From contig NC_043026.1 in the NCBI RefSeq assembly GCF_006345805.1, positions 12,875,579 to 12,939,578 on the forward strand: 64,000 nt of DNA, in the 5' to 3' direction. The notes under the pieces are model-generated. The model searched no databases. It saw only the letters and a program-made list of their open reading frames with translations, and was not told the DNA's origin. The stretch is from Octopus sinensis. Its lineage: Eukaryota. Made by a program: the position numbers and the translations under genes. The first letter of the stretch is position 1, and each line of letters starts with the position of its first letter. This document shows, piece after piece, positions 43,784-64,000 of the stretch.

Positions 43784-44554
43784 TTAATAAATATGTTTGT
43801 GAATTGTTAAGTGACCCATTTGAGAAATTGATTTATCACAGATATCAAAGTCAAAAGGCTTCTCTCCTGTATGGGTACGCTTGTGTCTAGTGAGGTTGCT
43901 ACTGTCCGAGAATGCGTTACCACAGATATCACATTGAAATGGTTTCTCTCCTGTATGAACACGTTTGTGAATTGTCAAGTGATATGCTTGAGAGAATGAT
44001 TTGTCACAGTTATCACAATGATATGGCTTCTCACCTGTGTGAATACGTTTGTGAGTAGTTAAGGCACTACTAACAGAGAATGATTTACCACAGATATCAC
44101 ACTGAAATGGTTTCTGACCTGTGTGGATAAGTTTGTGTCTAGTTAAGTTGGCACTTTCTGAGAAAGACTGACCACAGATGTCACAATCGTATGGTTTTTC
44201 TCCTGTATGGATACGTCTGTGTCTAGTTAAGTGGCCATTTTCTGAGAACGATTGACCACAAATGTCACAGTGATATGGTCTCTCTCCTGTATGGATACGT
44301 ACGTGTCTAGTTAATTTGCTTCCCTCCGAGAATGAGTCACCGCAAATATCACAGTGATATGGATTCTCTCTGGTATGGATACGTTTGTGTCTCTTTAAGG
44401 TGGCATTTATCAAATATGATTTACCACAGATATCACAATGGTATTGTTTTCCTCCTGAAGGATTATGTTTCTGCTCTTTTAAATTATCATTTTCACAGAA
44501 TGGTTTATCACTGATATCACGGTGGTCTGATGATTCTTGTGTATCTTTTGACAT
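43784..44554 (-). CDS. C2H2 zinc-finger protein D (7 intact fingers, eroded C-terminus)
   Basis: ATG at 44554 (MSKDTQESS), acceptor at 44962-44963, exon 1 donor at 46216-46217. Confidence 0.85.
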   Translation of the reverse strand: MSKDTQESSDHRDISDKPFCENDNLKEQKHNPSGGKQYHCDICGKSYLINATLKRHKRIHTRENPYHCDICGDSFSEGSKLTRHVRIHTGERPYHCDICGQSFSENGHLTRHRRIHTGEKPYDCDICGQSFSESANLTRHKLIHTGQKPFQCDICGKSFSVSSALTTHKRIHTGEKPYHCDNCDKSFSQAYHLTIHKRVHTGEKPFQCDICGNAFSDSSNLTRHKRTHTGEKPFDFDICDKSISQMGHLTIHKHIY

Positions 44555-45338
44555 TTCTCCAAGGAATAGAAACAAAACCAAATCCTTTAGCTGTTTCACC
44601 CTGTTACATTAATCTCTTGAAATTATTCTTTGTTCATCACAATATTTCAATAGTTTTCCTGTGTCTGTTTTTACACAAATACCTCTGTGGTTATCAACTG
44701 TGATCTTTATCAATATCTAAAGATGCTGCAAACTCCTTTGCAAATATATTCAAGTTTAATTAGAATGCAAAAGCAACAGGTAAGGAGATGGAGAAATGTT
44801 GCTCAGAGCAAATATTTCACAGTAATTCAATCCTGGATTTATAGCAGTTGGGTTATTATATCTGTTCCCTAAGACATTTTCCTTTAGTCTTTAAGACATG
44901 ATAGATATTCCAGATGTATCCAATGTACAAAAGATATTTGGTGCCAATGTCATCTGTGAATCTGAAATAATAAAGAAACGGTATTTAGATAGAGAGCAGA
45001 GATGAAAATGGAAGTGTTGCAACATTTCTATATTTCTTTGGAGCACCAACTAACATTGGTAACTAAAACAGGTGTAAGCAATGTTAAAGTTTTGTATGAA
45101 GAAAAATAATTAACCAATGTCGGCCAATTTTGTTTGTTTGTTGATCAAATGTTTTCCCCATTTTCTGCTTATTTTAAACTTTCATATATATTATGTGTAT
45201 ATATATAATGTGTATACACACATTTCATGGACTGTGATTTCAGAAAAAACATTTTTAGGATAAAATACAAGAGCACATAATAACAAAATATAGTTGCAGA
45301 CATTTTGATTGATTTCATGGCTTTCTGATTGATTTTTT

Positions 45339-45974: not shown

Positions 45975-46575
45975 TTTTTCCCCAACACCTTTCTCATCCC
46001 TGTCTGCCTCCTCTCTAACGGTATCGATATTATTGAAAACAGTTTGTTTTACAAGTGTACAAGCGATTCACGTTCTCCTTATTATAATTTTCGAGCAATT
46101 CTTGAAGTTGGCAAACGTCTGAGTCAATTAATTACGGTTCAGTTTCTTGTCTTAGATATCACAGACTTCTGTTTGCAAGGGTGGATCAGATGTAACGAAG
46201 ATATAGTCTCTACTTACCAGTAGAATGTTTGATATAAAGTCCAAACAAAAAAGGAAGGAGGCCGAGGAAAGTTCATCGACTGATTTCTTGTTGATTAAAA
46301 GCCATTTCCCCTTTTTCTGCAAAATAGGGGAAAACCAATTAACGACGTAAAGATGTGATTAAATTAAATAATTAACCAGGAAAGTGACGGAACACCGACC
46401 CTCAAACATGCAGTTGGCCCAGTTTTGTACACAAACAGTGAAGTTCTTCTTCCACATAAGATATAACCAGGCGTAACTCAAGGAAACACAAAGATTAGAC
46501 GATTTCATTGATAATTTTCCAGAGTGTCAATGAGGCCGGTGACACATATTAAAAGTCCCCAACATAATATAATAT
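45975..46575 (-). promoter_or_regulatory. Promoter and non-coding exon 1 cassette type 3 (gene D); near-identical copies 55270-55870 (gene E) and 63280-63870 (paralogue J)
   Basis: Donor ctg|gtaagt (exon boundary 46218; 55500 in copy 2), YY1-like aaatggc about 80 nt upstream. One copy lies upstream of each of three paralogous coding exons. Confidence 0.65.
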
Positions 46576-51684: not shown

Positions 51685-52505
51685 GCATCATCATCGTTTA
51701 ACATCTGCTTTCCATGCCAGCATGGGTTGGACGATTTTGACTGAGGGTTGGCGAACCAGATGGCTGCAACAGGATCCAATCTTGATCTGGCAGAGTTTCT
51801 ACAGCTGGATGCCCTTCCTAACGCCAACAACTCCAAGAGTGTAGTCGGTGCTTTTTACACATGCCACCGGTACAGGTGCCAGTAAGGTGATGCTGGTAAC
51901 GATCATGCTCGGATGGTGCCTTTTACGTGCCACCGGCAGGGAGGCCAGACGGCCGCTCTCTCAACGATCATGCTCGGATGGTGCCTTTTACGTGCCACCG
52001 GCAGGGAGGCCAGACGGCCGCTCTCTCAACGAGCATGCTCGGATGGTGCCTTTTACGTGCCACCGGCAGGGAGGCCAGACGGCCGCTCTCTCAACGATCA
52101 TGCTCGGATGGTGCCTTTTACGTGCCACCGGCAGGGAGGCCAGACAGCCGCTCTCTCAACGAGCATGCTCGGATGGTGCCTTTTACGTGCCACCGGCAGG
52201 GAGGCCAGACGGCCGCTCTCTCAACGATCATGCTCGGATGGTGCCTTTTACGTGCCACCGGCAGGGAGGCCAGACGGCCGCTCTCGCAACGATCATGCTC
52301 GGATGGTGCCTTTTACGTGCCACCGGCAGGGAGGCCAGACGGCCGCTCTCTCAACGATCATGCTCGGATGGTGCCTTTTACGTGCCACCGGCAGGGAGGC
52401 CAGACGGCCGCTCTCGCAACGATCATGCTCGGATGGTGCCTTTTACGTGCCACCGGCAGGGAGGCCAGACGGCCGCTCTCGCAACGATCATGCTCGGATG
52501 GTGCT
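51685..52505 (-). repeat. Family D element with an expanded 65-bp minisatellite (9 full units, 51901-52485)
   Basis: Unit gatcatgctcggatggtgccttttacgtgccaccggcagggaggccagacggccgctctctcaac. Confidence 0.9.
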
Positions 52506-53144
52506 GATTTACCACAAATATCACAGTGAAATAGTTTCTCTCCTGTATGGACATGTTTATGTCTCCATAATTCACTACTTTGAGAGAATGTTTTGCTACA
52601 AATATTACAAAGAAATGGATTATCTACTGTATGAATACATTTGTGTCTAGTTTAAGTCGGTACTTTCAGGGACTGACCCCAGATTATCACAGAGATATGG
52701 CTTCTGTATTATATTACTCATTTACTTGTTTCAGTCATTTGACTGCGGCCATGCTGGAGCACCGCCTTTAGTCGAGCAAATCGACCCTGGGACTTATTCT
52801 TTGTAAGCCCAGTACTTATTCTATCGGTCTCTTTTGCCAAACCGCTAAGTAACAGGGACGTAAACACACCAGCATCGGTTGTCAAGCAATGCTAGGGGGA
52901 CAAACACAGACACACAAACATATACATATATATATATACAAATATACGACAGGCTTCTTTCAGTTTCTGTCTACCAAATCTACTCACAAGGCTTTGGTCG
53001 GCCCGAGGCTATAGCAGAAGACACTTGCCCAAGGTGCCATACAGTGTGATTGAATCCGGAGCCATGTGGTTGGTTAGCAAGGTGAGAAATAAGCTTACGT
53101 ATCTGAGATGAAGATTTACTGCAAATATCACTGTGAAATAGTTT

Positions 53145-53999
53145 CTAAACTGTGTGTTTGTGAGTAGTTAAGGCAGTACTTCTGGAAAATGATTTGCCAC
53201 AAATATTACAAAGAAATGGCTTCTCTCCTGTATGAATACGTTTGTGTTTAGTTAAGTTGCTACTGTCCGAGAATGAGTTACCACAAATATCACAGTGAAA
53301 TGGTTTCACTCCTGTATGAATACGTATGTGTTTAGTAAAATCGCTACTTCGAGAGAATGATTTACCACAGATATCACAGTGAAATGGTTTTTCTCCTGTA
53401 TGAATACGTTTGTGAGTAGTTAAGGCACTTTTTTTAAAGAATGATTCATCACAGGTATCACAATTGAATCGTTTCCCTACTGTATGTATGCGTTTGTGTC
53501 TAGTTAAGTTGGTACTGTCGGAGAATGACTGACCACAGACGTCACAGTCAAATGGTTTCTCTCCTGTATGGATACGCATGTGAGTGGTTAAGTTGGCGCT
53601 TTCTGAGAATGACTGACCACAGATATCACAATGAAATGGCTTCTCCCCTGTATGAACACGTATATGTCTAGTCAAGTTGCTACTCTCCGAGAATGAGTTA
53701 CCACAGATATCACAGTGATATGGCTTCTCTCTTGTATGGGTACGTTTGTGAGAAGTCAAGTTACAGAGTTGAGAGAAAGATTTACTACAAATGTCACAGT
53801 GAAACGGTTTCTCCCCTGTATGAACACGTTTGTGTCTAGTTAAGTTGGTATTTACTGCGAATGATTTACCACAGATATCACAATGATATCGTTTTCCTTC
53901 TGAAGGATTACATTTTTGCTCTTTTAAATTATCATTTTCACAGAATGGTTTATCACTGATATCAGAGTGGTCTGATGATTCTTGTGTATCTTTTGACAT
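53145..53999 (-). CDS. C2H2 zinc-finger protein E (8 intact fingers plus a truncated ninth)
   Basis: ATG at 53999, acceptor at 54421-54422. Paralogue of D. Confidence 0.85.
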
Positions 54000-56393
54000 T
54001 TCTCCAAGGAATAAAAATAAAACCAAATCCTTTAGCTGTTTCACCCTATTACATTAATCCCTTGAAATTATTCTTTGTTCATCACAATATTTCAATAGTT
54101 TTCCTGTGTCTGTTTTTACACAAATACCTCTGTGGTAATCAACTGTGATCGTTATCGATGTCTAAAGATGCTGCAAACCCCTTTAGAAATATATTCAAGT
54201 TTAATTAGAATGCAAAAACACCAGGTAATAAAATAGAGAAATGTTGCTATGAATCTCAGGTGAGAGCCAATATTTCACAGCAATCCAGCCCTAGATTTTT
54301 AGCAGTAGGGTTATTATATCTGTTCCCTAAGACAGTTTCCTTTAGTCTTTAAGACATGATAGATATTCCAGATGTATCCAATGTACAGAAGTCGTTTTTG
54401 TGCCAATATCATTCGTAAATCTGAAATAATAAAGAAACAGTATTTAGATAGAGAGGAGAGATCAAAATGGAAGTGTTACAACATTTCTATAACGATTAAC
54501 AAATGACATCAAATAACATTGGGTGGAATAAAAATATTTCTAAACTACAGCTACACCTTCACATTGTCTAAGATTATATACTTTTCTTCTTTCAGTCATT
54601 ACTCTGTGGCCATGCTGGGGCACCACACTGGAGAATTTGAGGCAAACGAATTGATCTCAATACTTATAAATTAATCTATAGGTTTCGTTGTTATTTATTG
54701 CATTGGTCTCTTTTCCTGAGCTGACAAGTTACAGGGACATAAACAAACCAACACTGGTTATCAAGTTTGGCGTTGGGTGAGACACACACATACATGAATG
54801 TATATACGACAGAGTCTTGCTGGTTTCATCACCATGTGTAAGAGAAAAACATTTACAAACAGAAAATTGCGTTAGTAAAATAAATTATCTTTAAAATAAC
54901 TTTAAATTATTACAGCTTCCAGTGTTTCTGGTTTTCAATGAGAAACAAGTTGAAGGCAACTCTTCTTTCTCGTTTTTGATGAGACCCTTCTTTGTTTATT
55001 CCTTCTCGAGCCATGCCTGGCTCATAAGGGTCGGTTTCCCGGTTTCCTTGGCGTATAGGTTCCCCACCTGGACGGGAAGCCGATCCGTCGCAGGTGAGCT
55101 GCAAGATGCAGGAGGAAAGAGTGAGAGAAAATTGTGGCGAAAGAGTCAGCAGAAGTTCGCCATTACCTTCTGCTGGAGCCATGTGGATCTTAGGTGCATC
55201 GCTCATAAACACACACCTTGCCCGGTTTCAGATTCGAACCCGCAATATTCAGGAACCTTTTTGCCTACAGCTTTCTCATCCCCGTCTGTCTCCTCTCTAA
55301 CGGTATCGATATTATTGAAAACAGTTTGTTTTACAAGTGTACAAGCGATTCACGTTCTCCTTATTATAATTTTCGAGCAATTCTTGAAGTTGGCAAACGT
55401 CTGAGTCAATTAATTACGGTTCAGTTTCTTGTCTTAGATATCACAGACTTCTGTTTGCAAGGGTGGATCAGATGTAACGAAGATATAGTCTCTACTTACC
55501 AGTAGAATGTTTGATATAAAGTCCAAACAAAAAAGGAAGGAGGCCGAGGAAAGTTCATCGACTGATTTCTTGTTGATTAAAAGCCATTTCCCCTTTTTCT
55601 GTAAAATAGGGGAAAACCAATTAACGACGTAAAGATGTGATTAAATTAAATAATTAACCAGGAAAGTGATGGAACACCGACCCTCAAACATGCAGTTGGC
55701 CCAGTTTTGTACACAAACAGTGAAGTTTTCAACACGAGATAATTAACACATATAATATAATTAGATTTAGTTCAATTAATTAGAAACCCGAAGACTAGGC
55801 AGTGTCCTTGGTAATTTTCCAGTGTCAATGAGGCCGGTGACATATTTTAAAAGTCCCCAACATAATATAACACCGAGAAACAGCTTCAGCTATATTCATT
55901 TTATTTCTTTTACTTGTTTTAGTCATTTGACTGCGGCCGTGCTGGAGCACCGCCTTCAGTCGAACAAATCGACCCCCAGGACTTAATCTTTGTAAAGGCT
56001 AGTACTTATTCTATCGGTTTAATTTTTCTGAACCGCTAAGTTACAGCAGGTAAACACACCAACATCGGTTGTCAAGCGATGTTGGTGGGGACAAACAGAC
56101 ACACGAATACGTGTATGAGGTTGAGGGAGAAGTAAGCAACGTTTGGAACCAGGAAGAATTTGTACCGGATTTTTGTAGAGTTTTGAATATTTTAAAAACG
56201 TTTTTTGACAATTGTCTGATAATACAGACATAGACTTTCCCAAATGCATCAATAAATTAACATTGATATTTTTTGTGTGTGTCTGGGGGGGGGGGCATTG
56301 TTGCAATAATTTGAAATGGAAGCGTCAAAGCGCGATATTTTGATGTTCAAATTAAAAAAAGAACGTAAATTAGCGGAAACTGTTCCCGATATC

Positions 56394-56800
56394 AACTAGA
56401 GAAGCACTCGGAGAGCGCAGACCTCCGCCAAGCAGCTCCTTTTAAGATAGATACGCGAGTAAAATTACTAAAAGAAAAACGAAAATAAACTTTGGAAACA
56501 GCAACACCACCATAGGTTACGTGGAAACGATGAACGTGTTTTCAAGGGAGATAACCAAAGAACGTAACATTGTGATACTTAGTGTAAAGCAAATATAACA
56601 AATGAAAAATCCTTCAAGAATCCATAAAAATTCTCGGATCACTACCAAAATTTCACCATCTGTTCCTTGTTTCATTACTAAATTTTCTTGCAAGTTTCAT
56701 CAAATACTGTTCGCAACTTTTTGAGTTATTTTGCACACAGCCAGACAGACAAACCAACGCTGATGAAAACATAACCTCCTTCCTTGGCGGAGGTAATAAA
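56394..56800 (-). mobile_element. Helentron/DINE-1-like non-autonomous rolling-circle element
   Basis: Subterminal inverted repeats acctccgccaag / cttggcggaggt, adjacent short IR, (gaca)n microsatellite, terminal hairpin gcactcggagagcgc next to ctag. Confidence 0.7.
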
Positions 56801-57071
56801 ACTCAAGAATGGTTTAAACGATTTCGCAGCGGAGACCAGAGCCTTGAAGATCGTGAGCATAGTGGACGCCCATCTGTCATCAATGATGATCAATTAAAGA
56901 CTGTCATTGAAAAAGATCCACATAAAACCACTCAAGAACTGGCAAAAGAACTTCAAGTCAGCCAGAAAACTGCCTGCAACCATTTGCATGCAACCGAAAA
57001 ATCAAAGAAGCTCGACAAATGGGGTCCACACGATTTGAATGAAAATCAGAAAATGCGCAGATATGAAATTT

Positions 57072-57302
57072 GGCGGTGAGCTGGCAGAATCGTTAGCATG
57101 CCGGGCGAAATGCTTTGCAGTATTTCGTCCGCCGCTGCGTTCTAAGTTCAAATTCCGCCGAGGTCGACTTTGCCTTTCATCCTTTTGGCGTCGATAAATT
57201 AAGTACCAGTTACACACTGGGGGTCGATGTAATCGACTTAATACCTATGTCTGTCTTTGTTTGTCCCCTCTGTGTTTAACCCCTTGTGGGTAATAAAGAA
57301 AG
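57072..57302 (+). mobile_element. SINE family B inserted in the mariner ORF
   Basis: 13-bp TSD agatatgaaattt on both sides. Confidence 0.9.
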
Positions 57303-58848
57303 AGATATGAAATTTGCTCGTTGCTTCTTCTCCATAACAAAATCGTTCCATTTCTTGACCATATTGTAACTTGCGATGAAAAGAGGATTCTGTACAATAA
57401 TGAAAAAATGTTTTCTGCAGTGATTGAACCAAAATGAAGCAACGAAAACCTTCCCTAAACACAAGCTCTTCAGAGAGAAGGTTATTGTGACTGTTTGGTG
57501 GTGTACTGCTGGACTCTTCCACTATAACTCCTTAAAACCTGGAAAAACCATTACTGCAGAAACATATTGCCATGAAATTGCCGAGATGAATGCAAAACTG
57601 AATCTTCTCCGTCCCAGAAGGGTCAACAGAAGGGGGCCAATATTTCTTCATGACAATGCTCGAACACTCGTTTCACTAATGATGCTCCAGAAGTTGAGGG
57701 AACTTGGCTACAAAGTTTTCCCCCACTCAGCTTATTCCCCAGACTTTTCTCCTAATGACTACCACTTTTTCAACCACCTTGATGGTTTCTAGCGAGAGAA
57801 GGAGTTAAAAAATCAAACCAATATTGAAAGTGCATTCAAAGGGTTCATCAGCTCCAGAACTCCCTAATTTTATGTTACAAACTTGTAACCCATTGGTAAC
57901 TCATCATCAAAGCCACTTCTTTTTCTGGAAAAGAAAGTGGGTGGGTGATGTGGGACCTCGAAGTTTCCGGGAACCCAGAAAAGAAAGATTTGGCAGCTCT
58001 TATCTAACATGCCCTGCTACCGCGTAACAACTATTTGTAATAAAGGGCCTGCCGTGATCGCAAATAGTTGCTAAAATTTACCCAAACAAATATAGTAAAT
58101 AAAAAGCACCAATCCGACCGTGGCCGTTTGCCAGCTCTGTCTGGCACCTGTGCGGGTGGCACGTAAAAAGCACCCACTACACTCACGGAGTGGTTGGCGT
58201 TAGGAAGGGCATCCGCCCGTAGAAACACTGCCAGATCTGACTGGGCCTGATGAAGCCTTCTAGCTTCACAGACCCCAGTTGAACCGTCCAACCCATACTA
58301 GCATGGAAAACGGATGCTAAATGATGATGATGATGATGATGAAAAATAAGAAATAAAAACATGACTTTTATAAATTATTTATCTTTATTTAGAAACGTAT
58401 AATGAACAGGTTTCACAGGATACAACTTTACACAGGCGAAAACCTTAAAGTTGACACCGTTCGCGACAATGAAAGTTTATTATTGGTTAAAAACAGTTTT
58501 TTGATTTTTAAACATCTGCAACTTTTTCTTCAAATTTTTTCTCAATAAATTCTTTGGTTCAAATAAATGTTTTAATATAACAAAATTTCAGATTTTTTTA
58601 TGTCATCTGAAAAAGGGGGCTGATTTTGTGACTCATCCTAAGCAGATCCAAGTACAGTGAATATCGTCCTTCACAATTTGCTACTCATATGAAGTACATA
58701 TGTATTTCAACAATTTCTATCAAATTTGTTGACTGCCATGACACTGCATCCTTTAAGGCCCTCATGCTTTCCGAAATCTGCCGAAACTACACCTGATTAT
58801 ATATACACTTTAGATGAGTTGTAGTGCACCTAAGCACTGTACACAATG

Positions 58849-58880
<32 letters not shown>

Positions 58881-59332
58881 ATACACTCTCTTTTTTAAGC
58901 ATAAAAATCCTCTTCCTGAGTGACAATAACTTATATGTCAGACTGTGGCACAAGTTTTAGCTGTTTTGATACGAGAAATCGGTAAGGTTTGAAATGATTT
59001 CATTGGCATTTGTACCAAAGAGTGCTCTTTTGACAGACAACACATTGATCTCATAAATGTTACATGGTAGAAATAAACACAATTACCAGACTTTCATTCA
59101 TAAGACCATTTCTCATTCCATTTTTTTGCATTTCAATTTGTACATTTGTATAACCAACTGTTTACAAGTGCATTTGTCAAACAACGTCCTTTTTTTTTTT
59201 TTAAACATTATCTGCTGATATCAAAATAAGTAGTATATTGAAAAATAAAAATATTTTGTAAGTAGGGAGCCATTTGTGATTCCAAGGGTCAAAAGAGGGT
59301 ATTTGGCCAAAAATGGGTTAACAACCTTTATT

Positions 59333-59746
59333 CTAGAAAATCGATCTGGAGAAACTTCTGGATTTCATTTGGCAGAGGCTGTAGACTGCCAATTGTAGTT
59401 TCTGATTGCTGGTTTCTGATTGCTCGACTGATTTTGAAACCCTTACACTTCTCATGTTGGCTGCATTGGCAGCTCTCCTACATCCAGCTTGTTCGGGGGT
59501 TTCCGATGCCCTTTTTCTCCTCTTGGTAAGAGCATTTAATGCTCTTCGGGATGCAGCTTGTTCAGGGGTTTGAGACTCCCTAAGTTTTTGCATGTTCTCA
59601 GCATTGCAGGCTCTCCTCATTGCAGCTTTCTCTGCATTTTCATTCGCACGGGACTTTCTCTTCCTCGCTGCATCCTTGGCCCTTTTTATTGCAATCTCTT
59701 CCTCTGTTGGTGGAGATTTATTTTTAGGGGGCATTCTGCTGCCCAT
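59333..59746 (-). CDS. Basic helical protein with four 23-aa STPR-like repeats
   Basis: PTEEEIAIKRAKDAARKRKSRAN / ENAEKAAMRRACNAENMQKLRES / QTPEQAASRRALNALTKRRKRAS / ETPEQAGCRRAANAANMRSVRVS. Candidate 60-nt GT-AG intron 59758-59817 just upstream. Confidence 0.6.
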   Translation of the reverse strand: MGSRMPPKNKSPPTEEEIAIKRAKDAARKRKSRANENAEKAAMRRACNAENMQKLRESQTPEQAASRRALNALTKRRKRASETPEQAGCRRAANAANMRSVRVSKSVEQSETSNQKLQLAVYSLCQMKSRSFSRSIF

Positions 59747-59967
59747 GGGATAGGCAACTACACAAGAACTCTAGATTGATCGCCGCATTCAAGCATTACA
59801 TAAATATTTAAGCTTACCTTTTAACAGTTCAATGCTAATTCTTCTGTCGTCCCTTAATTTAAAGACAATTTGATGTAGTAGCTCCTTACTTTTTGTACAA
59901 ACAATTATTTCTATTTCATGAATGACTTTCACTGGATTTCGCAATAAATTTTGATTATTCCCAAATT

Positions 59968-60430
59968 TATATCAGAGTGGTATGATGACTCCTGTATATC
60001 TTTTGACATTTCTCCAAGGAATAAAAACAAAACCAAATCCTTTCACTGTTTCACCCTGTTACATTAATCTCTTGAAATTATTCTTTGTTCATCACAATAT
60101 TTCAATAGTTTTCCTGTGTCTGTTTTTACACAAATACCTCTGTGGTTATCAGCTGCGATCGTTATCAATATCTAAAGATGCTGCAAACTCCTTTGCAAAT
60201 ATATTCAAGTTTAATTAGAATGCAAAAGCACCAGGTAATGAGATGGAGAAATGTTGCTATGAATCTCAGATGAGAGCAGATATTTCACAGCAATCCAACC
60301 CTAGATTTATAGCAGTAGGGTTATTATATCTGTTCCCTAAGACATTTTCCTTTAGTCTTTAAGACATGATAGATATTCCAGATGTATCCAATGTACAGAA
60401 GTCGTTTTTGTGCCAATGTCATCTGTGAAT
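59968..60430 (-). pseudogene. Truncated ZNF paralogue J: leader and first 13 codons only
   Basis: Homologous to D and E from the acceptor (60431-60432) to MSKDIQESSYHSDI (ATG 60009), then unrelated sequence and a stop after 26 aa. Confidence 0.8.
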
Positions 60431-61074
60431 CTGAAATAATAAAGAAACAGAATTAGATAGAGAGGAGAGATCAAAAGAGAAATGTTACAACATTTCTTTA
60501 TTAATTAACAAACGACATCAAATAACATTGGGTGAAATCTAAAAATTTGTAGACTAAAACTACTCCATCACATTGTCTAAGATTATATACTTTTCTTCTT
60601 TCAGTCATTACTCTGTGGCCATGCTGGGGCACCACACTGGAGAATTTGAGGCAAACGAATTGATCTCAATACTTATAAATTAATCTATTGGTTTCGTTGT
60701 TATTTATTGTATTGGTCTCTTTTCCTGAGCTGCCAAGTTACAGGGACATAAACAAACCAACACTGGTTATCAAGTGTTGGTGCTGGGGGAGACACACACA
60801 CACACACACATGAATGCATGTATATATGGCAGGCTTCTTTTAGTTTCCAAATTTACCAAATCCTCATGTAACTCTTCAGCGTAAGGCTATAGTAAAAGAC
60901 ACTTGCCCAAGGTGCCATACTGTGGAACTGAACCCAGAACCATATGGTTGGGAAGCAAACTTCTTACCACATAATTACAATGTTGGCATTACTCATTTTT
61001 GCCAGCTGAGTGGACTGGAGCAACATGAACAAGAACACAACGTGTCGCCCGGTCCAGGAATCGAAACCACAATC

Positions 61075-61618
61075 TTAAGTTAAGTTAATTTTTTGGCTCA
61101 AAAAGCAAGGCCATGTAGGGGGACATGGAGTTATGTACAGGGAGGGTGTTCATGCAAAGAGTTCAGGCCATTTCTGGTCAAGAGAGACTTTGAACCGAGC
61201 GGTCGTCGACATCTTCACCATCTCGTCCAGCAGCTTATTCCATGGATCTGCAAACTGGACGGAGAAAGCCCCTCTCCTTCGATTGGGATGAAATCGTCGC
61301 AGATAGAGCTTTTCGGAGTGACCCCGCAGCCGACGCTCTATGTGTGTCTGTGTGTGTATATATAGTTAAGTTAATTTTTTGGCGCAAAAAGCAAGGCCAT
61401 GTAGGGGGACATGGAGTTATGTACAGGGAGGGTGTTCATGCAAAGAGTTCAGGCCATTTCTGGTCAAGAGAGACTTTGAACCGAGCGGTCGTTGGCATCT
61501 TCCCCATCTCGTCCGGCAGCTTATTCCACGGATCCGCAATCCGGACGGAGAAAGCCCCTCTCCTTCGATTGGGATGAAATCGTCGCAGATAGAGCTTTTC
61601 GGAGTGACCCCGCAGCCT
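61075..61618 (-). mobile_element. Two tandem 3' ends of a second CR1-type LINE
   Basis: Minus translation RLRGHSEKLY..RF...RRGAFSV...PWNKL...FKVSLDQKW, (ttaac)n tail. Copies at 61075-61333 and 61364-61618. Confidence 0.75.
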
Positions 61619-62354
61619 ACGATCATGATGCTGACACCCTAACCTCTAAGCCACGTGCCTCCACAAATATATTATACCCAGTGATTTTAAGAGGTATGAG
61701 AAAGATATTTTGCTTTTATATCATACCTTTACTTGTTTCGCACATATACATAAACTTTCATGTGTATTTTAGATGAATTCTTTATCATTCTTTATCTCTC
61801 CATAGACTTCGTTTTCACTCACTTCTATAACCTCTGCATTTTCACTAATTATTAATTTCAAACTTCTTTGAATTTCCAGTCTAATGTAATCCACATTCTC
61901 TCGAAAACACATTTCTGCAAAATGTTATCTGAAATTATGGGACTGAACCCGATACCAACATCATGGTTCCGGGTTCGGTCCCACTGTGTGGCACCTTGGG
62001 CAAGTGTCTTCTACTATAGCCTCGGGCCGACCAAAGCCTTGTGAGTGGATTTGGTAGACGGAAACTGAAAGAAGCCCGTCGTATATATGTATATATATAT
62101 GTGTGTGTGTGTGTGTTTGTGCGTCTGTGTTTGTCCCCCTAGCATTGCTTGACAACCGATGCTGGTGTGTTTACGTCCCCGTCACTTTGCGGTTCGGCAA
62201 AAAGAGACCGATAGAATAAGTACTGGGCTTACAAAAGAATAAGTCCCGGGGTCGATTTGCTCGATTAAAGGCGTTCCTCCAGCATGGCCGCAGTCAAATG
62301 ACTGAAACAAGTAAAAGAGTAAAAAGAGTAAAGAAAGAAACAGCAAAAGATATT

Positions 62355-62940
62355 TGAAAACGGTGGGGTGAAATTTCCGACTGTTCCACCCCACCCACCC
62401 CGTTTTCCAGACCAAACAAGGGGAGGGGGGTTCTGTGGCATATTACGATCTCACTGTAATTCATTCAATGAAAAGAAAAACAACAACATTTCCAGTGTTT
62501 CCAAGATGAGGGGGAGGGGTCCGGTTCCTCCCCCCCCCCGAACAAAAATATGGGGTTTGCAGCATATTAGGTGTTCAGAGTACTTGATTTCTTGCAAAAA
62601 ATCCGAGGTTTTTTTTTTTTTTCCTGATTGAAAATCGTGTGGGTGTGCTTCCCAAAGGAGTGGGGTGGTGAAATTTCCGAGGATTCCACCCCACCCCACC
62701 CCGTTTTCCGGACCAAAATAAGGGGGTTTGTGACATATTAGGCAGCCACCGTAATTCATTCAACGAAAAAAAAAAAAAAATTTCAAATGATTCCGGGAGT
62801 GGGGGAACCCCCACCTTTTTTCCGAACAAAAATAAGGTGTTTGCGGCATATTAGGAAAGTCAGAGTACTTGATTCCACGCAAAAATTCCGAGGTTTTTTT
62901 TTTTTTTTTTTTTTTTCCTAAGTGAAAATCGCGCGGGTGA
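62355..62940. repeat. Two diverged ~300-bp tandem units, unclassified
   Basis: gtgaaatttccga..ttccaccccacc, ccgaacaaaaata and cagagtacttgatt...aaaaatccgaggtttt each occur twice. Confidence 0.7.
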
Positions 62941-64000
62941 AAGAATCGAAATTGACCGAAACAATAAAGTCAGGGGGCGGTGCATATATGTAAGAATACC
63001 GAGTTCAAATCCCGCTGAGGTCGAACTTGCCTTTCGTCCTTTTAAGCGCTGATAAAATAAATACCAGTTGAATGTTGGGGTAGATGTAACCGACTTTTGG
63101 CCCTCATGCTTTCCGAAATCCGTCGAAACTACACCTGATTATATATGCACGTTAGATGAGTTGTAGTGCACCTGAGCACTGTACACAATGTTTATTATTA
63201 TTATTATTATTTTCCCTTCTCTGATATTGCTGGCGTTGTGTCAAATTCTGAACCCGCAATATTCAGGAACATTTTTCCCAACACCTTTCTCATCCCCGTC
63301 TGTCTCCTCTCTAACGGTATCGATATTATTGAAAACAGTTTGTTTTACAAGTGTACAAGCGATTCACGTTCTCCTTATTATAATTTTCGAGCAATTCTTG
63401 AAGTTGGCAAACGTCTGAGTCAATTAATTACGGTTCAGTTTCTTGTCTTAGATATCACAGACTTCTGTTTGCAAGGGTGGATCAGATGTAACGAAGATAT
63501 AGTCTCTACTTACCAGTAGAATGTTTGATATAAAGTCCAAACAAAAAAGGAAGGAGGCCGAGGAAAGTTCATCGACTGATTTCTTGTTGATTAAAAGCCA
63601 TTTCCCCTTTTTCTGTAAAATAGGGGAAAACCAATTAACGACGTAAAGATGTGATTAAATTAAATAATTAACCAGGAAAGTGACGGAACACCGACCCTCA
63701 AACATGCAGTTGGCCCAGTTTTGTACACAAACAGTGAAGTTCTTCTTCCACATAAGATATAACCAGGCGTAACTCAAGGAAACACAAAGATTAGACGATT
63801 TCATTGATAATTTTCCAGAGTGTCAATGAGGCCGGTGACACATATTAAAAGTCCCCAACATAATATAATATTTCAGTTTCCGTCTACCAAATCCACTCAC
63901 AAGGCTTTGGTCGGCCCGAGGCTATAGCAGAAGACACTTGCCTAAGATGCCACGCAGTGAGACTGAACCCGGAACCATGTGGTTGGTAAGCAAGCTACTT

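What the first reader, a model, noticed from the sequence alone, without database searches (positions are those of the whole stretch)
59333..63870. ZNF paralogue whose finger array is replaced by an STPR-repeat ORF
Seen: J keeps an intact promoter/exon 1, acceptor, leader and first 13 codons, then switches at about 59968 to foreign sequence. That sequence has a candidate 60-nt intron and, on the same strand, a 137-aa ORF with four exact 23-aa basic repeats (E/Q-T-P-E-Q...RR...R). Established: four 23-residue repeats define the STPR DNA-binding domain (silkworm FMBP-1, human ZNF821), and similar repeats occur at Helitron RepHel N-termini. Inference: a transposon-derived DNA-binding module captured under a ZNF promoter, a candidate new gene. 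The ZNF ATG would become a 26-aa uORF; I found no in-frame fusion.
Basis: partly seen in the sequence, partly recalled or inferred. Interest (0 to 1): 0.75.

Follow-up and report, generated by a model that had tools for sequence, protein, structure and literature searches.

The report
Zinc-finger promoter driving a Helitron fragment
In an octopus zinc-finger gene cluster, one copy has lost its fingers and its promoter now makes a spliced RNA that carries the front end of a transposon protein gene; whether that short repeat protein is made or useful is untested, and it is more likely an expressed relic than a working new gene.

Summary
The structure is real. Locus J keeps a ZNF promoter/exon 1, leader and 13 codons, then joins at 59969-59973 to the 5' coding end of a Helitron (47 genomic matches; a longer relative runs on into Helitron_like_N). 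A second DNA-transposon relic forms the 3' UTR. No finger remnant lies in the 8 kb searched. RNA-type contigs show the exon 1-exon 2 splice in 4 of 4 runs, and 6 of 8 runs bridge the junction, so the ORF is transcribed. The 60-nt intron is retained in all 7 RNA-type and DNA contigs that cross it. The 137-aa ORF has an exact 23-residue period but scores below the Pfam STPR cut-off (16.9 vs 27 bits) and has 0 of 16 FMBP-1 DNA-contact residues. Its last ~22 residues are out-of-frame Rep sequence. Fifteen ATGs lie upstream. Selection is unresolved: amino-acid changes from the family match the neutral expectation (24 vs 27), but haplotypes show 0 missense changes against 13 flanking ones (P 0.008-0.18 by baseline). 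Verdict: a transcribed ZNF-Helitron chimera, probably a relic; about 25% that it is a young protein-coding gene.

The parts
63514..63871 (-). ZNF-type promoter and non-coding exon 1 (RNA contigs reach 63810-63824)
   Evidence: 99.3% to G, 91.8% to H; only 3 copies at 91% or more among 63 matches; RNA pieces 63514-63824
60431..63513 (-). Intron 1, 3083 nt, GT-AG
   Evidence: Joint 60430-63514, ends CT..AC on +, in 4 of 4 runs
60010..60430 (-). ZNF exon-2 leader
   Evidence: 4.5-7.3% different from paralogues H, G, K over 60330-59975
59929..60009 (-). Former ZNF start: 13 ZNF codons plus 13 Helitron-derived codons, a 26-aa uORF
   Evidence: codons 1-13 differ from H and K at 4 of 39 nt while H and K are identical
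59969..59973 (-). ZNF/Helitron junction, 5-nt overlap of the two homologies (GATAT in J and ZNFs, GAAAT in the element)
   Evidence: bridged by 31 nt or more on both sides in 6 of 8 runs
59409..59973 (-). Helitron fragment 1: internal leader and first 108 codons of RepHel; about 1.0 kb of the element's 5' end is missing
   Evidence: 47 matches, best others 78-84%; 1009 and 1021 nt from the 5' end to the junction point in L036 and L037
59758..59817 (-). 60-nt GT..AG, probably the Helitron's own leader intron with a weakened pyrimidine tract; retained in RNA contigs
   Evidence: GT present in 9 of 10 aligned copies; no skip in the 7 contigs that cross it
59333..59746 (-). 137-aa ORF (133 aa from the element's own ATG at 59734)
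   Evidence: 15 ATGs upstream in the spliced model from 63810
59435..59710 (-). Four 23-codon STPR-like units (aa 13-104), first one degenerate
   Evidence: predicted helices break at aa 59-60 and 82-83 but not 36-37
59394..59408 (-). Scar of an internal deletion of about 390 bp, with an 11-nt local duplication
   Evidence: J against L046
59333..59393 (-). Helitron fragment 2: Rep-domain sequence read out of frame; supplies the ORF tail and stop
   Evidence: 87% to L046 over 61 bp; in the Rep frame 13 of 20 residues match L059
58342..59330 (-). Relic of a high-copy DNA transposon with terminal inverted repeats (hAT-like; label recalled), with a 150-bp repeat inserted at 58726-58874; forms the 3' UTR
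   Evidence: 79 matches from 40 of 2007 candidates; 15-bp inverted ends and 8-bp flanks matching at 6 of 8 in L078
58372..58389 (-). AATAAA at 58389 and end of RNA cover (58372, 58399, 58405): likely poly(A) site
   Evidence: contigs cannot fix an RNA end

Best explanation
J is a broken zinc-finger paralogue whose promoter, first exon and leader are joined to an internal piece of an old Helitron, likely by a microhomology deletion that removed the finger array and the element's first kilobase, and it makes a spliced RNA that is likely a non-coding or barely translated relic. Order of events (inferred): a long STPR-RepHel Helitron inserted in the cluster; it lost about 390 bp internally and was cut off by a second transposon inserting at a CTAG-containing target; the ZNF 5' half was then fused to it. 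The ZNF promoter still fires, intron 1 is spliced, and the RNA ends in the second transposon. Ribosomes would mostly start at the old ZNF ATG and stop after 26 codons; the repeat ORF would be reached only by leaky scanning or re-initiation past four further ATGs. The open frame and its excess of silent changes would be inherited from the transposon's own coding history.
For: Helitron origin: family ends A|TC.. and hairpin-CTAG|T; L046 continues into Helitron_like_N (50.4 bits, cut-off 28.9). Deletion: no finger remnant in 55870-63870, 5-nt overlap at the junction, element 5' end missing. Transcription: splice joint in 4 of 4 runs; ORF depth 24-65 against 0-12 in unique intron bins. Relic: missense changes from the family majority 24 observed against 27 expected from J's own leader (plus 1.6 stops expected, 0 seen; P 0.22); J's two transposon non-coding parts are both about 11.5% diverged while the ZNF leader is 4.5% from K, so most divergence may predate the fusion. 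2 of 10 copies also have an open frame. The tail is out-of-frame Rep. No protein record of this ORF in 3 searches and an exact look-up; best relative 72% (another copy).
Against: Haplotypes: 13 substitution sites and a 10-nt gap in 711 flanking nt, but 1 silent and 0 missense changes in the 414-nt ORF (P 0.008, or 0.024 for 10 independent events). Silent share of J's changes is 18 of 42 against 83 of 290 in copies (Fisher P 0.073; one-sided binomial 0.034). J has 3 small deletions in 240 nt of element leader and none in 326 nt of ORF. An open frame at J's divergence has a chance of only about 0.05-0.2 (my estimate). Parent ZNFs share a leader with about 10 upstream ATGs, so such leaders do not exclude translation. 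The ZNF-leader clock may be reset by gene conversion.
Confidence: 0.62

Rival explanations
1. J is a young protein-coding gene: the ZNF regulatory cassette now expresses a small, basic, all-helical Helitron-derived protein by re-initiation after the 26-aa uORF. It would enter the nucleus and bind DNA through its 23-residue helices, either as a new transcription factor or as a Rep-less competitor of STPR-bearing Helitron transposases.
For: Spliced, apparently polyadenylated RNA in runs of 6 studies and 2 organism labels; 0 missense against 13 flanking changes; NG86 dN/dS 0.36 against the family majority versus 0.68 pooled for copies; gap-free, in-register alignment to FMBP-1 over 84 residues, the only PDB hit (E 0.24); predicted helical, pLDDT 84; 183 nt between the uORF stop and the ORF start.
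Against: With intron differences as baseline (8 in 1442 nt) the missense gap has P 0.14-0.18; the low dN/dS comes from raised silent change (18 vs 9 expected), not lowered missense change, as expected from a divergent transposon master; 4 differences of run X18 could not be placed; below Pfam cut-off; 0 of 16 FMBP-1 contact residues; no translation evidence.
Confidence: 0.27
2. The locus is kept for its RNA or its act of transcription (regulation of neighbouring ZNFs, or a source of small RNAs from two transposon families), not for a protein.
For: J contigs are deeper than the finger-coding branch in X5 (23.8 vs 5.9) and about equal in X15 (17.9 vs 15.1); promoter 99.3% identical to G.
Against: Contig depth cannot rank genes, and in X12 the order is reversed (4.5 vs 11.9). 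Promoter identity is explained by conversion or recent duplication. The Helitron piece is in sense orientation. Flanks are more variable than the ORF.
Confidence: 0.08
3. The junction is an assembly error joining a ZNF copy to a repeat.
For: The cluster is repetitive, and the two ZNF frames of L054 have the same lengths and N-termini as the first two in the window.
Against: Junction-bridging contigs in 6 of 8 runs from 6 studies, including haplotypes with up to 11 differences.
Confidence: 0.01

Closest known systems
STPR-bearing Helitrons (HLE1 group; PMC11417382, passages read)
   Same: The ORF is the N-terminus of such an element; the genome holds a second family with STPR and Helitron_like_N in one frame (L059).
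   Different: J has no termini, no Rep or helicase domain in frame, and sits under a host promoter.
Silkworm FMBP-1 / BmSTPR (PDB 5d23; PMC4856987, passages read)
   Same: Four tandem 23-residue basic units in register; Thr2 in 3 of 4, Arg9 in 3 of 4; predicted helices.
   Different: Glu1 in only 2 of 4; Arg6, Leu10, Tyr16, Arg20 in 0 of 16 places (Arg at 10 and 21 instead); E 0.24; DNA binding untested.
Human ZNF821 (C2H2 plus STPR; named as an STPR protein in PMC4856987)
   Same: A zinc-finger gene context together with STPR-like repeats.
   Different: ZNF821 has both in one protein (recalled); J has lost all fingers and has no in-frame fusion.
Transposon-host chimeric transcripts and domesticated transposase genes (general class; search listings only)
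   Same: Host promoter and exon spliced onto transposon sequence.
   Different: Here the host part contributes no protein domain, and selection and translation are not shown.
P0002, Octopus bimaculoides 'uncharacterized protein C05D11.13-like'
   Same: 72% identical over 74% of the ORF; same Helitron family.
   Different: Carries the family-majority residues, lacks J's tail, lies on a 168-Mb contig (J's is 15 Mb): most likely another copy, not an orthologue.

Membership tests
STPR domain (PF21107, FMBP-1 type) | Tandem repeats of strictly 23 residues, usually four, basic | tested here: met
   Lag-23 identity 0.42, 0 of 20,000 shuffles; units at aa 13, 36, 59, 82
STPR domain (PF21107, FMBP-1 type) | Glu1, Thr/Ser2 and Arg9 in each repeat (PMC4856987) | tested here: not met
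   Glu1 2 of 4, Thr2 3 of 4, Arg9 3 of 4; all three together in 1 of 4 units
STPR domain (PF21107, FMBP-1 type) | FMBP-1 DNA-contact residues Arg6, Leu10, Tyr16, Arg20 | tested here: not met
   0 of 16 positions (one Lys20)
STPR domain (PF21107, FMBP-1 type) | Pfam gathering score of 27 bits | tested here: not met
   16.9 bits, E 0.0086; the relative P0002 just passes at 27.2
STPR domain (PF21107, FMBP-1 type) | Binds the DNA major groove | not testable with these tools
   No binding data; Foldseek against PDB gave no match at E 0.001 or better
Helitron-derived sequence | Family has 5' TC and 3' hairpin-CTRR ends between A and T | tested here: met
   5' A|TC in L036, L037, L041, L049; palindrome then CTAG|T in L036, L037, L044
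Helitron-derived sequence | Contiguous with a Rep (Helitron_like_N) domain in a longer copy | tested here: met
   L046 shares repeats and tail with J and hits PF14214 at 50.4 bits; tblastn with L059 E 2e-54
Intact or mobile Helitron | Both termini present in J | tested here: not met
   About 1.0 kb of the 5' end missing; 3' side ends at a second transposon
hAT-like DNA transposon (3' UTR relic) | Short terminal inverted repeats with an 8-bp target duplication | tested here: inconclusive
   Both ends found in 1 of 9 loci (L078; flanks match at 6 of 8); transposase not looked for; label recalled
Domesticated transposon gene | Transcribed from a host promoter | tested here: met
Domesticated transposon gene | Purifying selection on the ORF after capture | tested here: inconclusive
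   Missense 24 vs 27 expected; haplotype test P 0.008-0.18
Domesticated transposon gene | Orthologous open frame in distant species | not testable with these tools
   Present under 3 coded organism labels at about 0-1.5% divergence; no other eukaryote genome can be searched; no orthologous protein found
Domesticated transposon gene | Translated | not testable with these tools
   No Ribo-seq or proteomics available
C2H2 zinc-finger gene | Finger array in frame with the start codon | tested here: not met
   tblastn with paralogue H finds only the N-terminal residues in 55870-63870

The most novel reading that the evidence does not exclude
A zinc-finger gene swapped its whole DNA-binding array for a Helitron's STPR-like repeats and the result is already under selection as a protein: a host STPR gene caught at birth, showing how FMBP-1- or ZNF821-like factors can arise from rolling-circle transposons, possibly as a Rep-less inhibitor of the STPR Helitrons in the same genome.
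Probability: 0.25. Interest if true: 0.75.

Novelty: new variant of a known kind. Interest (0 to 1): 0.48.

Why it matters
Cephalopod C2H2 clusters are large and fast-turning, and whether they co-evolve with transposons is called an open question in PMC12513265 (passage read). J shows directly that a cluster promoter can be handed to a transposon coding fragment and stay active. If the ORF is translated and selected, it is a datable case of Helitron protein domestication and a model for the origin of host STPR factors. My 8 literature searches listed no paper on such a locus; the library lacks most subscription papers. If not, it is an ordinary expressed pseudogene-transposon chimera.

Tried and rejected
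In-frame ZNF-STPR fusion: stops in all three frames; neither removal of the 60-nt intron nor the 10-nt gap in X12 gives one. Splicing of the 60-nt intron: no such joint listed, contigs unbroken across it, but 32 joints were not shown and contigs drop minor forms. Finger array displaced downstream: none in 8 kb. Assembly error: rejected. Orthologous protein: near, longer and shorter searches, exact look-up and the 54 hits among 1.84 billion representatives gave only other copies and distant STPR-like proteins; an absent annotation is not evidence of absence. Foldseek: 1 match at E 8.8, uninformative for a pTM 0.36 helical model. No listed holder was on record as RNA; RNA status rests on the splice joint and low intron depth. 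dN/dS used BLAST projections with some misaligned repeat units, so I rely. The tree of 15 rows was star-like with weak support and did not place J. The splice contigs of X5 and X7 (25 and 27 nt on the exon-2 side) could come from paralogue G or a J allele; those of X1 (29 nt) and X6 (51 nt) fit J only. Earlier findings: 3 look-ups, nothing. Supplements of the papers were not read.
Full report
Setting. The window is G000:C30:12875579-12939578 in a 2.72-Gb genome and holds a tandem cluster of single-coding-exon C2H2 genes. I read the animal as an octopus from the cluster type (recalled) and from the best protein hit, named for Octopus bimaculoides. J is the last unit, on the minus strand. Paralogues: G (ORF 43784-44608), H (53145-54053) and K (L099, 5.6 kb beyond the window, opposite strand).

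Observation. J's 63272-63871 is 99.3% identical to G and 63238-63868 is 91.8% to H; these three are the only copies at 91% or more among 63 matches. Exon 2 follows G, H and K from the acceptor to codon 13, and homology ends at 59969. The old ATG gives a 26-aa uORF; all three frames are closed before 59746. tblastn with H finds no finger remnant in 55870-63870. The 137-aa ORF is as described. Its 23-residue period is strong (0 of 20,000 shuffles), but units share only 7-13 of 23 residues.

What the insert is. 59250-59970 has 47 matches in the genome (40 of 158 candidates scored, a lower bound; best others 78-84%). Most belong to an element of about 1.65 kb that starts A|TC about 1.0 kb upstream of J's junction point and ends in a palindrome and CTAG|T just after the repeats: a non-autonomous Helitron. 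A longer copy, L046, shares J's repeats and runs on into a broken frame that hits Helitron_like_N (50.4 bits). J matches L046 again at 59393-59333 (87% over 61 bp) after a gap of about 390 bp whose scar carries an 11-nt duplication. That piece is Rep sequence; in J's ORF it is read out of frame and supplies the stop. From 59330 to about 58342 lies a relic of a high-copy element (79 matches from 40 of 2007 candidates) with 15-bp inverted ends and, in 1 of 9 loci examined, near-matching 8-bp flanks; I call it hAT-like from memory. STPRs are reported as a stable extra domain of HLE1 Helitrons (PMC11417382, passages). PF21107 has 63 matches in this genome (150 of 1463 candidates scored), J not among them.

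Origin. The ZNF and Helitron homologies overlap by 5 nt (59969-59973), the element lacks its 5' end and the fingers are gone. One deletion joined by microhomology explains all three (inferred). J's Helitron leader and its 3' relic are 11.7% and 11.5% from their family majorities, against 3.8-9.8% and 6.0-7.9% for other copies, while its ZNF leader is 4.5% from K. Taken as clocks, the transposon patch is older than the fusion; gene conversion could distort the ZNF clock.

Expression. 20 of 24 listed runs hold half or more of the stretch's words; none is on record as RNA. I laid 8 of the 24. In 4 of 4 runs a joint skips 60431-63513 with GT-AG ends. It fits J only in X1 and X6; in X5 and X7 it could be G or a J allele. 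X12 has a loose end at 60431 that reads as exon 1. Contigs bridge the ZNF/Helitron junction by 31 nt or more in 6 of 8 runs (X1, X6, X7, X12, X15, X17); X18 reaches only 26 nt across and X5's contig stops at 59859. ORF depth is 24-65 against 0-12 in unique intron bins 62524-63025, which serve as the silent control. Cover ends at 58372, 58405 and 58399 in three runs, near AATAAA at 58389. These are overlapping contigs, not single molecules. None of the 7 listed contigs that cross 59817-59758 skips it. That GT..AG is inherited from the Helitron, and J's pyrimidine tract is weakened.

Translation. A spliced model from 63810 has 15 ATGs before 59746: 10 before the old ZNF start, that start, and 4 after it. 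The parents share most of the first 10, so the family tolerates such leaders. Re-initiation after a 26-codon uORF over 183 nt is plausible from general knowledge, but nothing here shows it.

Protein. Pfam STPRs 16.9 bits against a cut-off of 27. The only PDB sequence hit is FMBP-1, gap-free and in register over aa 13-96, E 0.24. By the features in PMC4856987 (passages) J has Glu1 in 2 of 4 units, Thr2 in 3, Arg9 in 3, and none of 16 Arg6/Leu10/Tyr16/Arg20 positions. The single-sequence model is helical (pLDDT 84, pTM 0.36) with breaks at the two Thr-Pro caps; Foldseek found nothing. It is an STPR-like Helitron repeat, not a member by the tests made.

Selection. Against the per-column majority of 18 copies J's ORF has 18 silent, 24 missense and 0 stop changes; the copies pool to 83, 198 and 9 (Fisher P 0.073). 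Scaled to J's leader with the copies' mutation spectrum the expectation is 9.0, 27.1 and 1.6. Missense change is therefore neutral-like (P 0.22) and silent change is in excess (P 0.005); 12 of the 18 silent changes go towards G or C. This fits descent from a divergent transposon master at least as well as host selection. Two of J's residues recur in an unnamed relative (P0009). 2 of 10 aligned copies keep an open 100-codon frame. On the other side, J-specific contigs of X1, X6, X7 and X12 differ from the window at 13 sites in 711 flanking nt, plus a 10-nt gap placed at 59908-59963 from a depth dip, but at only 1 silent site in the 414-nt ORF. P for no missense change is 0.008 (13 sites) or 0.024 (10 events, adjacent pairs merged, one homopolymer site dropped), but 0.14-0.18 with intron differences (8 in 1442 nt) as baseline. 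X18's 4 differences were not displayed and are left out. Most variants belong to one related set of haplotypes, and runs under labels A and B can be identical to the window, so this is no deep conservation.

Verdict. The step from expressed chimera to new DNA-binding gene is open and, on balance, less likely than not: about 0.62 relic, 0.27 young gene. Papers: passages of PMC11417382, PMC4856987 and PMC12513265 (0 occurrences of STPR); all others as search listings only; no supplements.

Noticed in passing
L055 (G000:C29:2625000-2634900); further hits to 2.645 Mb and at 3.036-3.048 Mb: A tandem array of at least 10 kb of 69-bp units that translate to one 23-aa STPR-like unit, with many frameshifts: an STPR-derived satellite or a very long repeat gene.
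   Followed up: partly
L056, L068 (G000:C3:141.946-141.973 Mb): Three neighbouring STPR hits; the two read are short ORFs with no Rep sequence seen and the best PF21107 score in the genome (48.7 bits): candidate host STPR genes, perhaps better domestication cases than J.
   Followed up: no
L057-L066, L069, L070: A younger STPR-RepHel Helitron family with open frames of 450-590 aa; L059 has STPRs and Helitron_like_N above cut-off in one frame.
   Followed up: partly
window 63272-63871 vs 45976-46575: J and G promoters/exon 1 are 99.3% identical over 600 bp while their exon-2 leaders differ by 6.1%: recent gene conversion or promoter duplication.
   Followed up: no
L054 (10 kb before the window): Two ZNF frames of 468 and 587 aa with the same N-termini as the first two genes of the window: recent tandem duplication or duplicated assembly.
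   Followed up: no
window 60044-60045: Five RNA-type runs carry the G/H letters here instead of the window's: allele or assembly error.
   Followed up: no
window 52358-53145: H's finger frame stops after 302 aa (stop to stop) and finger-like sequence resumes at 52651-52358 beyond an inserted repeat: H may be truncated by an insertion.
   Followed up: no
L099 (G000:C30:12945195-12945591): Paralogue K has a 529-aa finger frame, but the first 59 nt of exon 2 including the acceptor do not align with J.
   Followed up: no
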